Assembly: GCA_042218075.1 (NCBI GenBank)
Contig: JBDGRK010000005.1
Location: 87,693 to 151,692, forward strand
Reading direction: 5' to 3'
Length of the DNA: 64,000 nt
Origin: Candidatus Nanohaloarchaea archaeon
Lineage (GTDB): Archaea; Nanohalarchaeota; Nanosalinia; Nanosalinales; Nanosalinaceae
Positions 19,920 through 21,712 of the stretch are shown here, in pieces; the first letter of the stretch is position 1, and the number at the start of each line of letters is the position of its first letter. The position numbers and the translations under genes are program-made. A model generated the notes under the pieces. That model made no database searches. It was not told the origin of the DNA and was given only the letters and a program-made list of their open reading frames with translations.

Positions 19920-20669
19920 ATGAGGCTGGAAAATAGCTTTATACTGGTTCCCGGAGTAGGAGAGAAGACGGAGAGGAAACTCTGGAAAAACGGAGTAAGA
20001 CACTGGGATCAAGTTTCCAGCGCTGAAAAAATAGGCGGACGAAAGAGGAAGAGGATTGAAAGTTTTCTGGAGAAAGCGAGGAAGAACCTTGAGGTTGGAA
20101 ACAGCTACTTCTTCGGCGACAAGCTGCCGAACAGTGAGCTATGGAGGGCCTACAGGAATTTCGAGCAGGAAGCGTGTTTTTTCGACATTGAAACTACTGG
20201 ACTCGACAGGGAGAAGAACAGGGTCACAACAGTGAGCTTTCACCGCAACGGAGATACTAGAACACTGGTGAGAGGTGAAGATCTCACTTTTGAAAATATC
20301 AGACAGGAGATAGAGAGCTCCAGCATACTGGTATCTTTCAACGGAAAGAGGTTCGACCAGCCATTCCTGGAGCACAACTTTGATCTGGAGATAGAAATTC
20401 CACATCTCGACCTGATGTATCCCTGCAAGAGGCTGGGATTGACAGGAGGTCTCAAGAAGGTCGAGAAAGAACTCGGTATTGGAAGAAATCTCGAGGATAT
20501 AGATGGAAGAGAAGCAGTAAAGCTGTGGAAGAGATACGAGAAGGGAGATCAGGAAGCACTCGAAAAGCTGGTTAGGTACAACGGCTATGACGCGGAGAAC
20601 TTGAGGCAGGTTCTGGAAAACGTCCACAGAAGGCTTGAGAGCAAGTTTTTCCGGCCTCACGTTGATTGA
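19920..20669 (+). CDS. RNase H-like (YprB/DEDD) exonuclease with N-terminal HhH
   Basis: VPGVGEK, FFDIETTG, SFNGKRFD, HLDL, GGLKKVE, YNGYD. Confidence 0.88.
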   Translation: MRLENSFILVPGVGEKTERKLWKNGVRHWDQVSSAEKIGGRKRKRIESFLEKARKNLEVGNSYFFGDKLPNSELWRAYRNFEQEACFFDIETTGLDREKNRVTTVSFHRNGDTRTLVRGEDLTFENIRQEIESSSILVSFNGKRFDQPFLEHNFDLEIEIPHLDLMYPCKRLGLTGGLKKVEKELGIGRNLEDIDGREAVKLWKRYEKGDQEALEKLVRYNGYDAENLRQVLENVHRRLESKFFRPHVD

Positions 20670-20718
20670 CAGGAAATATTTATAAACTTCACTTCACAAT
20701 AGTTAGGTGAAGATTCAC

Positions 20719-20835
20719 ATGGCCCTGAATAACCTGAACTGGAACACTAATGTGCATGTGTCTCCGGTGAGCTATAGCTTTGCCAGGGCCAAGGCCAAAT
20801 ACTTCTCCACCAACACCATTAACCTGGCAGAGTAG
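20719..20835 (+). CDS. Putative 38-aa leader peptide (uORF)
   Basis: TATA-like TTTATAAA ~20678 and SD-like AGGTGA before the ATG; MALNNLNWNTNVHVSPVSYSFARAKAKYFSTNTINLAE*. Confidence 0.5.
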   Translation: MALNNLNWNTNVHVSPVSYSFARAKAKYFSTNTINLAE

Positions 20836-20838
20836 AGC

Positions 20839-21240
20839 GGGATGACGCCTTGGCACCTGACAGGTGCCGACTCGCGCCGACCGCGAAAAACTAAAACACA
20901 GGGAAAATCCACACCTGCCATCTCTACACCGTGGAAATTCTCAGGGCGACTGTCGCTTGCAAGGTGGCGGTCGTCCCCGGAACATTTTCAGCCATCCAAC
21001 TCTGCCAACTGAAAAAGGTGTCTACAATCGACGCGAACACACGAAACTTCGAGACCGAGCTTCAGGCCCAGGAAGAAACAGGAGTGAGAATGGAAACTCA
21101 GCTCCACCAGGAAGCCACGGTCTTGACCGCGACAGCCCTTTAAAACAAACGGCCGGAGAACCATTTTTCCTCCTCTCAAGACGTAATGCTTTTACACACC
21201 TCCGGCCACAGGGAGAAATCCCTGTCATCCCTCTTTTTTT
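20839..21240 (+). ncRNA. Large structured RNA of unknown class (~400 nt)
   Basis: Terminal helix 20839-46/21224-31, at least six internal helices, several G-U pairs that only work on the + strand, 3' T7 tract. Confidence 0.7.
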
Positions 21241-21712
21241 ATTCGGATGCAGCCGACTCGAAAGCCGCCCAGCCGTTCGCTATTGAATCAAGAATTGAGG
21301 TGAAGGATCTGGCCGGTTTGATGATTTTTCTCCTGCCTTTCTCCCCCTCGTTCCTGCCCCGGTACTCAAGGTAGTCGTACTTTATCACGCCAAGCCTTCT
21401 GAGCTTGGGGAGTATATTGTTCTTCAGGTTGCTCTTGCCCTTCTCATGACCCCATTCATCGAAGGAATTCAGCTTCTCAGAGTCTATTTCTCCCTCATCC
21501 TTGAGTTCCCGGAGAAAAATCTTCGCGTACTTGTTCCTCTTCGGCGACTGCTCCTGGGGGAAGAAGAGATCAACGATCTTCTCCCAGTTCCACGCCCTCT
21601 CCGACTTCTTGTACTTCTGCCGGTCCTCCGGGATCGCGATCGAATGTTTTGTTACGATAGTGGAAGTCTTTCTCGCGGTTTCGTCCACGAAAGGATGATC
21701 GTCTTCGGTCAT
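21239..21712 (-). CDS. Hypothetical protein, winged-helix-like
   Basis: 157 aa; KSNLKNNILPKLRRLGVIKY resembles a wHTH recognition helix plus wing. Confidence 0.7.
   Translation of the reverse strand: MTEDDHPFVDETARKTSTIVTKHSIAIPEDRQKYKKSERAWNWEKIVDLFFPQEQSPKRNKYAKIFLRELKDEGEIDSEKLNSFDEWGHEKGKSNLKNNILPKLRRLGVIKYDYLEYRGRNEGEKGRRKIIKPARSFTSILDSIANGWAAFESAASE

What the first reader, a model, noticed from the sequence alone, without database searches (positions are those of the whole stretch)
20839..21240. Unannotated ~400-nt, end-paired, highly structured RNA in an otherwise gene-dense genome
Seen in the sequence: GGGATGAC (20839-46) pairs perfectly with GTCATCCC (21224-31), closing the whole region, and a T7 tract follows. 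Internal helices are GGCACCT/AGGTGCC (20852-68), a 14-15 bp hairpin at 20944-76 with five G-U pairs (this fixes the strand as +), TTTTCAG/CTGAAAA (20985-21015), TCGAGACCG/CGGTCTTGA (21049-21126), GGAGTGAG/CTCAGCTCC (21081-105), GGCCGGAG/CTCCGGCC (21151-207) and ACAGGGA-GAAA-TCCCTGT (21208-25). Compared with known classes, I cannot find the RNase P P4 signature (GAGGAAAGUCC...ACAGAA..GGCUUA), SRP helix 8 (CAGG-NCC-GGAA-GGN-AGCA) or group II domain V. Inference: a new class of large archaeal ncRNA, or a very divergent member of a known one. This is my best candidate for an undescribed system in the window.
Basis: partly seen in the sequence, partly recalled or inferred. Interest (0 to 1): 0.88.

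Follow-up and report, generated by a model that had tools for sequence, protein, structure and literature searches.

The report
Structured K-turn RNA between two micro-genes
The supposed 400-base RNA is really a small, conserved Nanohaloarchaeal operon in which a folded RNA with a kink-turn sits between two tiny protein genes, probably to control their translation.

Summary
Comparison with up to 38 distinct homologous loci shows it is not one end-paired 400-nt RNA.

Only the 5' ~160 nt (20837-20983) is a conserved non-coding structure. It holds a kink-turn-closed hairpin domain and two further hairpins. 96.9% of cells are paired and 27 of 35 pairs show compensatory change.

The 3' half is a real 38-41-codon gene (ORF2, 21018/21027-21143), followed by hairpins and a T7 tract shared with a convergent gene. 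The closing helix GGGATGAC/GTCATCCC is found only in this window, and it competes with the conserved K-turn stem.

Upstream, a frame-conserved 38-codon ORF1 (20719-20835) is itself part of the RNA fold. Its start-codon segment, an internal segment and a segment of the K-turn domain form two overlapping, alternative helices.

SRP RNA lies elsewhere in the genome. RNase P RNA lies elsewhere in relatives and falls in an assembly gap here.

Best reading: a family-restricted, single-copy, undescribed cis-acting mRNA structure, probably bound by L7Ae. It is not in Rfam. Its function is inferred, not shown.

The parts
20679..20686 (+). TATA-box-like TTTATAAA, 33 nt before the ORF1 ATG (putative promoter of the unit)
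   Evidence: A YTTWTAAR motif is aligned at this place in the 28 distinct homologs shown. Its role as a promoter is inferred from recalled archaeal promoter architecture, not tested.
20719..20835 (+). ORF1: 38 codons plus TAG. A frame-conserved leader ORF embedded in RNA structure.
   Evidence: The frame is open in 28 of 28 distinct homologs; the other two frames are closed in 27 and 28 of 28. 21 of 21 distinct gap runs are multiples of 3, against 15 of 67 in the RNA and linker. Codon-position diversity is flat at 0.30/0.35/0.37, and the synonymous fraction is 0.175 against 0.11/0.15 in the other frames. 15 database relatives of 38-42 aa were found.
20720..20727 (+). Segment A (UGGCCCUG, overlaps the ORF1 start codon); pairs with B1
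   Evidence: A:B complementarity of 7-11 contiguous pairs in 32 of 33 distinct sequences, in 24 different sequence versions. predict the helix.
20784..20795 (+). Segment B (CAGGGCCAAGGC). B1 (20784-91) pairs with A; B2 (20788-95) is complementary to C. The two uses overlap.
   Evidence: Variants with both sides changed: L024/L052 for A:B; L101, L099 and L014/L024/L052 for B:C.
20837..20884 (+). K-turn-closed domain. C stem 20837-40/20881-84; bulge GAU 20841-43; G.A/A.G 20844-45 with 20879-80; NC pairs 20847-48/20876-77; hairpin H2 20852-57/20863-68. Segment C (GCCUUGGC) is 20847-54.
   Evidence: L2 A, L3 U, 1b G, 2b A, 2n G and 1n A are each invariant in 31 of 31 distinct sequences; L1 is G in 26 and A in 5; -1b:-1n is G:C in 31 of 31; helices 1-3 are 98-100% paired with compensatory changes. 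One search gives the same on an alignment not fitted to a model; the window's own fold closes this domain.
20901..20942 (+). Hairpin H3 (20901-12 with 20931-42) with an 18-nt pyrimidine-rich loop of conserved sequence
   Evidence: helices 4-6: 9 pairs, all with changes on both sides, 87-94% paired (alignment fitted to the model); a stem enclosing this loop region in 28 of 31 separately folded homologs; z below -2 in 19 of 31.
20944..20976 (+). Hairpin H4, 14-15 bp, with a conserved apex and several G-U pairs that fix the plus strand
   Evidence: MAFFT plus RNAalifold; 14 pairs, 10 with changes on both sides, 98% paired, and one pair G-U in all 28 sequences that have letters there.
20977..20983 (+). 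Conserved CCGGAAC directly 3' of H4
   Evidence: Alignments. No partner was found.
20984..21014 (+). C/A-rich linker, variable in length and sequence.
   Evidence: alignment. Gap runs here are not multiples of 3.
21015..21020 (+). AAGGUG, a Shine-Dalgarno-like motif. Its GUG (21018-20) is an in-frame candidate start of ORF2.
   Evidence: a GGTG-type motif lies upstream of ORF2 in all 38 distinct sequences printed.
21027..21143 (+). ORF2: 38 codons from ATC 21027 (41 from GTG 21018) plus TAA. A conserved acidic peptide.
   Evidence: on 31 distinct homologs: codon-position diversity 0.36/0.22/0.57; synonymous fraction 0.41 against 0.095 and 0.056 in the other frames; stops TAG 16, TAA 12, TGA 3; 60 database proteins, all hypothetical; 42 cluster representatives.
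21151..21207 (+). Hairpin GGCCGGAG...CTCCGGCC in the 95-nt convergent intergenic region
   Evidence: It recurs in L006-L008 and L011 only (read by eye; no count made).
21208..21240 (+). Hairpin ACAGGGA-GAAA-TCCCTGT (21208-25), then T7 (21234-40): the likely end of the transcript
   Evidence: The stem sequence differs while pairing is kept in L006 and L007 (by eye). It is not called by the bacterial-type terminator scan, because the T run starts 8 nt after the stem. T7 overlaps the stop of the convergent gene.
21239..21712 (-). Convergent 157-aa gene (context), always next to the unit
   Evidence: present in 38 of 38 distinct loci at 76-90% identity; model with pLDDT 69; only weak winged-helix matches (best E 0.034).
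19920..20669 (+). Upstream RNase_H_2 / DEDDh-type exonuclease gene (context)
   Evidence: PF13482, 1.5e-40; present in 36 of 38 loci; the other two loci start at a contig end.

Best explanation
The interval is the middle and end of one small transcription unit conserved in one family of Nanohaloarchaea.

Order of parts:
1. A TATA box.
2. A 38-codon leader ORF1.
3. A ~160-nt structured RNA core: a K-turn-closed hairpin domain, hairpin H3 with a conserved loop, and the long hairpin H4.
4. A variable linker.
5. A Shine-Dalgarno site and the 38-41-codon ORF2.
6. Hairpins and an oligo-T tract.

Proposed mechanism (inferred):
- The RNA acts in cis on translation.
- The K-turn has a GAU bulge, tandem G.A/A.G pairs and -1b:-1n = G:C. 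In studied K-turns that last feature prevents folding without protein. It is therefore probably folded only when an L7Ae-family protein binds.
- Segment C, inside the K-turn domain, is complementary to segment B2 inside ORF1. The overlapping B1 is complementary to segment A, which holds the ORF1 start codon.
- With the K-turn domain folded, B is free to pair with A and mask the ORF1 start.
- With the domain unfolded, B can pair with C and leave A free.
- ORF1 ends 1 nt before the K-turn C stem in the window (2 nt before its GC core), so a terminating ribosome would open that stem.
- How this reaches ORF2 is not known.

Shown: the architecture, the coding status of ORF2, the frame conservation of ORF1, the covarying helices, the K-turn signature, and the A:B and B:C complementarities.

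Inferred: the transcript ends, L7Ae binding, the switch, and any regulatory outcome.
For: Conservation and copy number:
- DNA homologs in 19 of 24 same-family genomes.
- Model R1 finds one copy per genome in 39 of 49 same-family genomes and 1 of 20 genomes of other families of the order.
- R1 hits 45 of 46 loci searched.

Structure:
- 96.9% of cells paired against 79.1% in shuffles and 40-46% when slid. 27 of 35 pairs have compensatory change.
- An alignment not fitted to the model gives 16 of 23 pairs with compensatory change.
- K-turn positions are invariant in 31 of 31 sequences.
- Rules for protein-dependent K-turns and the GAU bulge of l7ae leaders were read in section 5 of PMC6298567.
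- An L7Ae-family gene is in the genome.

ORFs:
- ORF2 coding statistics.
- An SD motif before ORF2 in all 38 distinct sequences.
- ORF1 frame conservation.
- ORF1 has RNA-type rather than protein-type substitution.

Alternative helices: A:B and B:C complementarity each in 32 of 33 sequences, with variants changed on both sides. Fold predictions agree.

Other:
- In the longer gene calls shown, the conserved H4 sequence is read in different frames relative to ORF2, so it is not coding.
- Synteny is kept in 36 and 38 of 38 loci.
Against: - There are no expression data, so transcript ends and translation are not shown.
- The K-turn is about 130 nt upstream of the ORF2 SD. This is unlike the l7ae leaders, where the K-turn stem-loop overlaps the SD.
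- Pairing between the H3 loop and the ORF2 SD is not above shuffles. Nor is pairing between the ORF1 tail and the H3 loop. No link from the switch to ORF2 was found.
- Segments A, B and C are mostly invariant, so covariation for A:B and B:C rests on a few lineages. The position that varies in C also covaries within H2.
- The A:B shuffle control is passed (at most 10 of 200) in 24 of 33 sequences, not all.
- 3b = C in 14 of 31 and 3n = G in 4 of 31 would favour ion-induced folding.
- A weak TATA-like ATTAT(C/T)A inside the ORF1 end could give a separate transcript starting at the K-turn.
- The alignment was fitted to the model.
Confidence: 0.55

Rival explanations
1. The ~160-nt core is a stand-alone, stable K-turn ribonucleoprotein RNA acting in trans. 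It is either cut out of the operon transcript or made from an internal promoter in the ORF1 end. The two small ORFs are merely neighbours or carriers.
For: - The K-turn sits at the very 5' end of the core and a long hairpin at its 3' end, as in protein-protected sRNAs.
- The H3 loop is conserved in sequence and no cis partner was found.
- An ATTAT(C/T)A motif lies about 24 nt before the K-turn (by eye).
- A conserved 266-nt intergenic sRNA of a Nanohaloarchaeon is reported in PMC7002113 (passage read). Its sequence was not visible, so identity with this RNA is unknown.
Against: - The ORF1 stop keeps a fixed distance before the C stem in nearly all homologs aligned.
- Segment C is complementary to ORF1-internal segment B in 32 of 33 sequences. 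This ties the core to the upstream mRNA.
- The core is always followed by SD-ORF2: 75 of 75 loci carry both motifs.
- No trans target was sought or found.
Confidence: 0.25
2. The core is a structural mRNA element without a switch, for example a stabiliser or processing site between two independently translated small-protein genes. The K-turn serves as an architectural or protein-anchoring motif.
For: The same structural evidence applies. No link to the ORF2 SD was found.
Against: It does not explain the overlapping A:B and B:C complementarities. It also does not explain the near-absence of protein-level constraint on a frame-conserved ORF1.
Confidence: 0.12
3. One reading: one ~400-nt RNA closed by 20839-46/21224-31. 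It would be a new class of large archaeal ncRNA or a very divergent RNase P or SRP RNA.
For: The window's own fold uses the closing helix and is unusually stable. The genome shows no RNase P RNA hit, although all four RNase P protein genes searched for are present.
Against: - The closing helix is absent from the three same-genus relatives.
- The 3' half is coding, and its internal helices are not conserved.
- SRP RNA is at C31:10241-10503 with 108 bits.
- RNase P RNA is found in 24 of 40 relatives at other loci than the homolog of this element.
- In two same-genus genomes RNase P RNA lies between regions that match the ends of contigs C34 and C38 of this assembly, that is, in a gap.
Confidence: 0.03
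4. The 5' element is a box C/D methylation-guide sRNA, as suggested by the weak Rfam sR45 match.
For:: sR45 at 22.9 bits, E 0.0079, over 20838-20882. The GGGAUGA / CCGA ends resemble the C and D boxes and form the same kind of K-turn.
Against: - The score is below the gathering score of 40.
- Where guides and C'/D' boxes should be there is a covarying hairpin with a variable loop.
- The C box (RUGAUGA) and D box (CUGA), recalled consensus sequences, are each one base off, and this holds in the homologs too.
Confidence: 0.03

Closest known systems
K-turn operators in the 5' leaders of archaeal l7ae mRNAs (Daume et al. 2017, PMC5539422, search listing and abstract only; Huang, Ashraf and Lilley 2019, PMC6298567, abstract, passages and section 5 read)
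   Same: [quoted passage not shown] A -1b:-1n pair that is not C:G, predicted to need protein to fold. A proposed conformational switch that changes access to a translation start.
   Different: - This element is not upstream of l7ae.
- Its K-turn does not overlap an SD. It lies directly after the stop of a leader ORF and about 130 nt before the next SD.
- It is part of a much larger structure (H3, H4, and helices inside ORF1).
- Binding was not tested.
Box C/D sRNA terminal K-turn (Rfam sR45, RF01274)
   Same: A terminal stem, a GAUGA-type strand opposite an NGA strand, and an L7Ae-type K-turn geometry.
   Different: There are no guide regions and no C'/D' boxes. The score is below the family threshold. 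The element is embedded in an mRNA.
Bacterial leader-peptide and translation-coupled switches (trp-type attenuators, ermC, secM-secA). Recalled from general knowledge; no paper read here.
   Same: A short ORF whose frame, rather than its sequence, is kept. It is followed by RNA segments able to form mutually exclusive helices, and it has a stop codon placed against a structure.
   Different: No such device has, to my recollection, been demonstrated in Archaea. No regulatory codons were identified. The K-turn/protein component is foreign to those systems. The output gene is a 38-aa peptide of unknown function.
K-turn-containing riboswitches and other structured RNAs (review PMC4316175; SAM-I study PMC3651934; search listings and abstracts only)
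   Same: A K-turn used as an architectural element inside a larger conserved fold upstream of a gene.
   Different: No ligand pocket or tertiary partner of the K-turn arm is evident. The H2 loop is variable. No Rfam riboswitch model matches.

Membership tests
Archaeal RNase P RNA (RF00373) | Match to the covariance model (P1-P4 core with its conserved regions) | tested here: not met
   No RF00373 match in 20650-21350 even at E up to 10. The best matches anywhere in the genome score 9.3 and 6.7 bits against a cut-off of 84, and lie on other contigs.
Archaeal RNase P RNA (RF00373) | It is the genome's RNase P RNA locus (orthology) | tested here: not met
   Relatives carry RNase P RNA at other loci than the homolog of this element. 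Examples: G002 at C1:3405-3813 against 91351-91751; G019 on C11 against C8. In this assembly the orthologous place falls between contig ends C34 and C38.
Archaeal SRP RNA (RF01857) | Match to the covariance model | tested here: not met
   The SRP RNA is at C31:10241-10503 with 108 bits. There is no match in the region.
Box C/D sRNA | C (RUGAUGA) and D (CUGA) boxes, internal C'/D' boxes and ~12-nt guides; a family model score | tested here: not met
   sR45 scores 22.9 bits against a cut-off of 40. The interior is a covarying hairpin. The box consensus sequences are recalled, not from a call.
Standard kink-turn motif | Watson-Crick C helix, 3-nt bulge, tandem sheared G.A/A.G, then an NC helix | tested here: met
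   bulge R-A-U. G and A at 1b/2b and G and A at 2n/1n in 31 of 31 sequences. C helix of 4 pairs, 100% paired, 2 of them with compensatory change. NC pairs 100% paired.
Standard kink-turn motif | Kinked three-dimensional geometry and binding by an L7Ae-family protein | not testable with these tools
   Only the presence of an L7Ae-family gene was shown.
L7Ae translational operator (l7ae leader type) | The K-turn stem-loop overlaps the ribosome binding site of the regulated gene | tested here: not met
   The K-turn domain (20837-84) lies after the ORF1 stop and about 130 nt before the ORF2 SD.
L7Ae translational operator (l7ae leader type) | Sequence rules predicting no folding without protein (-1b:-1n not C:G; 3b not C and 3n not G) | tested here: inconclusive
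   -1b:-1n is G:C in 31 of 31. But 3b = C in 14 and 3n = G in 4 of 31. The rules are from PMC6298567, section 5.
Leader-peptide / translation-coupled RNA switch | A short translated ORF with overlapping, mutually exclusive downstream helices | tested here: inconclusive
   The frame is kept. A:B and B:C complementarity is each seen in 32 of 33 sequences and overlaps in B. Translation and switching were not observed.
Intrinsic (bacterial-type) terminator | A G+C-rich hairpin directly followed by a T run | tested here: not met
   One search finds none on the plus strand. T7 starts 8 nt after the stem. Archaeal termination at oligo-T is recalled knowledge.

The most novel reading that the evidence does not exclude
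This is the first archaeal example of a ribosome-sensing leader. Translation of a frame-conserved but sequence-relaxed 38-codon ORF, together with L7Ae binding to an adjacent K-turn, toggles two overlapping helices (A:B against B:C). That would set the output of a bicistronic micro-protein operon in DPANN archaea. It would combine a leader-peptide switch with a protein-dependent K-turn, a combination not described in any domain.
Probability: 0.2. Interest if true: 0.75.

Novelty: new variant of a known kind. Interest (0 to 1): 0.5.

Why it matters
- It corrects a tempting mis-reading: a 'large end-paired ncRNA' taken as a missing RNase P RNA.
- It replaces that reading with a defined RNA family that can be modelled. 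The family is not in Rfam. It is single-copy and conserved in most genomes of one Nanohaloarchaeal family.
- Cis-regulatory RNAs are very poorly known in Archaea and unknown in DPANN symbionts with ~1-Mb genomes, where every conserved non-coding element is costly.
- A K-turn tied to a leader ORF gives a concrete, testable case of protein- and translation-dependent mRNA refolding.
- It also flags two conserved micro-proteins that gene callers miss or mis-extend.

Tried and rejected
RNase P RNA: rejected.

SRP RNA: rejected.

HARP-type protein-only RNase P: PF08745 has no match over its cut-off.

Closing helix of the 400-nt model: not conserved.

Helices inside ORF2: not conserved.

Anti-SD pairing of the H3 loop with the ORF2 SD region: at most 10 of 200 shuffles reached the observed value in only 3 of 38 sequences. 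Rejected as unsupported.

Pairing of the ORF1 tail with the H3 loop: passed in 1 of 36. Single suggestive variants (L008, L019) were not pursued.

Fused ORF1-ORF2 or longer relatives:
- None for ORF1 among 8000 longer candidates, which is weak evidence.
- Longer ORF2 hits have unrelated N-termini.

Family searches for the two peptides:
- Nothing in Pfam, NCBIfam or PADLOC.
- PDB sequence search gave only weak, unexplained matches for both peptides. ORF2: best E 0.087. ORF1: eL13, E 0.0044, 20.4 bits, no matched stretch passing on its own.
- Nothing usable in the ESM Atlas for ORF2.

Expression: no RNA holder was listed among the 7 sequencing runs returned.

ORF1-ORF2 complex prediction: no verdict.

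Literature:
- Searches found no description of this element.
- The one possible lead is the 266-nt Nanohaloarchaeal itsRNA in PMC7002113.

The single-sequence structure model of the 157-aa neighbour was poor. The alignment-based model gave only weak winged-helix matches.
Full report
**1. The observation**

Folded alone, 20836-21245 (+) gives -136.9 kcal/mol with z -4.61; 0 of 100 dinucleotide shuffles are as stable. That fold uses the listed helices, including the closing pair 20839-46/21224-31. The minus strand gives z -2.39.

No Rfam family reaches its gathering score in the 64-kb window. With permissive filters on 20650-21350 the only notable match is box C/D family sR45 at 20838-20882: 22.9 bits against a cut-off of 40, E 0.0079. 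No tRNA or tmRNA is called in the window.

What remained open was what conservation says.

**2. It is not SRP RNA or RNase P RNA**

The window is contig C36 of a 1.10-Mb, 40-contig assembly that is 92% complete.

- Archaea_SRP is found on C31:10241-10503 with 108 bits.
- RNaseP_arch has no match over its cut-off anywhere in the genome; the best is 9.3 bits.
- Pop5, Rpp30, Rpp29 and Rpp21 genes are all present.
- No HARP-type PIN_5 protein passes its cut-off.

This made a divergent RNase P RNA a serious candidate. It is excluded by three results.

- RF00373 matches 24 of 40 relatives, 7 of them over the cut-off. These matches lie at places different from the homologs of the present element. In G002 they are C1:3405-3813 against C1:91351-91751. 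In G019 they are on C11 against C8.
- blastn with the two same-genus RNase P RNAs finds nothing in this assembly.
- In both same-genus genomes the RNase P RNA lies between stretches that match the start of contig C34 and the end of contig C38. The gene therefore falls in an assembly gap here.

A survey paper reports all five RNase P proteins in Nanohaloarchaeota (PMC4919917, passages read).

**3. Relatives show a composite**

DNA search finds homologs in 19 of 24 same-family genomes. The printed sequences and alignments show the following.

ORF2:
- From window 21027 on, the sequence is a conserved reading frame.
- In 31 distinct homologs the pairwise diversity at codon positions 1/2/3 is 0.36/0.22/0.57.
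- 41% of differing codon pairs are synonymous, against 9.5% and 5.6% in the other frames.
- The stop varies: TAG 16, TAA 12, TGA 3.
- A GGTG-type Shine-Dalgarno motif precedes it in all 38 distinct sequences printed.
- Profile searches find 60 proteins and 42 cluster representatives. Those with names are 'hypothetical protein' of Nanohaloarchaea or Ca. Haloredivivus.
- Longer gene calls have unrelated N-termini. In the longer calls shown, the conserved RNA hairpin sequence is read in different frames, which shows that stretch is non-coding.

The rest of the 3' half:
Slid controls give 26-34%.
- The closing helix is absent from the three same-genus relatives.
- The hairpins at 21151-21225 lie in the 95-nt gap before a convergent gene whose stop overlaps T7. 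They recur only in the same genus and one other genus (by eye).

**4. The conserved RNA core**

MAFFT plus RNAalifold on 17 sequences recovers three helices: a 4-bp closing stem, the hairpin 20852-68 and the long hairpin 20944-76. 16 of 23 pairs show compensatory change.

A covariance model built from two sequences (R1) hits 45 of 46 loci searched. The miss is an unrelated bacterial contig. On the resulting alignment of 31 distinct sequences:
- 96.9% of cells are paired, against 79.1% in shuffles (0 of 500 reach the observed value) and 40-46% when the partner is slid.
- 27 of 35 pairs have changes on both sides.
- This alignment is fitted to the model, which favours it.

The third hairpin (H3, 20901-42) is also found when each homolog is folded alone. 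A stem is present in 28 of 31, with z below -2 in 19 of 31.

The closing stem is a textbook kink-turn:
- A C helix GCGG/CCGC with covariation.
- A bulge R-A-U.
- G and A on one strand opposite G and A on the other, invariant in 31 of 31.
- Two NC pairs that covary (C-G in 26, U-A in 5).
- -1b:-1n is G:C in 31 of 31.

According to section 5 of PMC6298567, that last feature is rare and prevents ion-induced folding. The same section says a GAU bulge with tandem G:A/A:G is what archaeal l7ae leaders carry. An L7Ae-family gene is present in the genome.

Invariant G-U pairs in H4 fix the plus strand.

R1 finds one copy per genome in 39 of 49 same-family genomes and in 1 of 20 genomes of other families of the order. 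None of 20 homologous loci has an Rfam match.

**5. The element reaches upstream into a leader ORF**

A 38-codon ORF (20719-20835) ends 1 nt before the K-turn C stem in the window.

Evidence that its frame is maintained:
- It is open in 28 of 28 distinct homologs, while the other frames are closed in 27 and 28 of 28.
- All 21 distinct gap runs within it are multiples of three, against 15 of 67 in the RNA and linker.

Evidence that its protein sequence is barely constrained:
- Codon-position diversity is flat at 0.30/0.35/0.37.
- The synonymous fraction of 0.175 is barely above the other frames.

The nucleotide alignment explains this. The start-codon segment A (UGGCCCUG here) is complementary to segment B1 inside the ORF. 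The overlapping segment B2 is complementary to segment C (GCCUUGGC) inside the K-turn domain.
- A:B has 7-11 contiguous pairs in 32 of 33 distinct sequences, in 24 sequence versions.
- B:C has 8-9 pairs in 32 of 33.
- Both have variants changed on both sides. The amino acids change with them.
- RNAalifold predicts A:B plus an inner hairpin when the K-turn domain is left out. It predicts B:C when the domain is included. The window's own centroid fold shows A:B together with the K-turn domain.

A TATA-like motif is conserved about 33-40 nt before the ATG.

**6. Mechanism**

Shown: the architecture, the coding status, the covariation, the K-turn signature and the competing complementarities.

Inferred:
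- An L7Ae-type protein folds the K-turn domain.
- That frees B to mask the ORF1 start.
- Without the protein, B:C forms and ORF1 is open.
- Ribosomes ending ORF1 unwind the C stem.

I could not connect this to ORF2. Pairing of the H3 loop with the ORF2 SD is not above shuffles, nor is pairing of the H3 loop with the ORF1 tail.

Rivals are a stand-alone K-turn RNP sRNA and a purely structural mRNA element. No RNA run holds the stretch, so ends and expression are unknown.

**7. Context**

The unit always lies between an RNase_H_2-type exonuclease gene (36 of 38 loci; the other two start at contig ends) and a convergent 157-aa gene (38 of 38 loci).

The 157-aa protein is 76-90% identical across genera, more than the exonuclease at 59-72%. 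Its model (pLDDT 69) gives only weak winged-helix matches.

**8. Novelty**

Searches of the held literature found no description of this element. A 266-nt conserved Nanohaloarchaeal intergenic sRNA is mentioned in PMC7002113. It could be the same RNA, but its sequence is in a supplement I could not open.

I class the finding as a new variant of a known kind, namely K-turn-bearing cis-acting mRNA structures. It has an unusual leader-ORF component.

Noticed in passing
G000 contigs C34 (start) and C38 (end); relatives G002:C1:3405-3813 and G004:C1:15898-16309: The genome's RNase P RNA is missing from the assembly. In two same-genus genomes it lies between regions that match these two contig ends. 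The part matching C34 gives hits in all six frames, which may mean an RNA gene. In this group, RF00373 scores fall below the Rfam cut-off in 17 of 24 genomes with a match.
   Followed up: partly
window 21018-21029 and homologs: The ORF2 start is heterogeneous. Of 38 distinct homologs, 21 have ATG at the homologous first codon. Of the other 17, 13 have an in-frame GTG exactly 9 nt upstream (inside the GGTG motif), 1 has ATG at -6, and 1 has GTG at -12. The remaining 2 (L014, L052) have no canonical in-frame start, only ATA/ATT.
   Followed up: partly
window 21239-21712 (-): The convergent 157-aa protein is unusually conserved: 76-90% identity across genera, against 59-72% for the neighbouring exonuclease. 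It has no Pfam or NCBIfam match. It shows a weak winged-helix fold likeness. The ESM Atlas places it near widespread ~160-aa archaeal hypothetical proteins and the AF_0843 family.
   Followed up: partly
L104:1415-1442 (G000 C15, about 20 nt upstream of the L7Ae-family gene): A perfect hairpin with a GAUGAUC loop and GCCUU/AAGGU in its stem precedes an AAGGUG motif and the ATG of the L7Ae-family gene. It shares the GAUGA and GCCUUG words with the element studied. Whether it is a K-turn or K-loop operator was not worked out.
   Followed up: no
proteins P0076-P0093 (homologs of ORF2): Gene callers often extend ORF2 upstream through the structured RNA to 62-107 aa. The extensions are unrelated to one another and are annotation artefacts. 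The window's own 70-aa ORF 20931-21143 and 140-aa ORF 20864-21286 are of this kind.
   Followed up: yes
window 20977-20983 and 20913-20930: The CCGGAAC word after H4 and the pyrimidine-rich H3 loop are conserved in sequence, but no partner was found.
   Followed up: partly
G000:C31:10241-10503 (-): The SRP RNA of the genome scores 108 bits against a cut-off of 96.5.
   Followed up: yes
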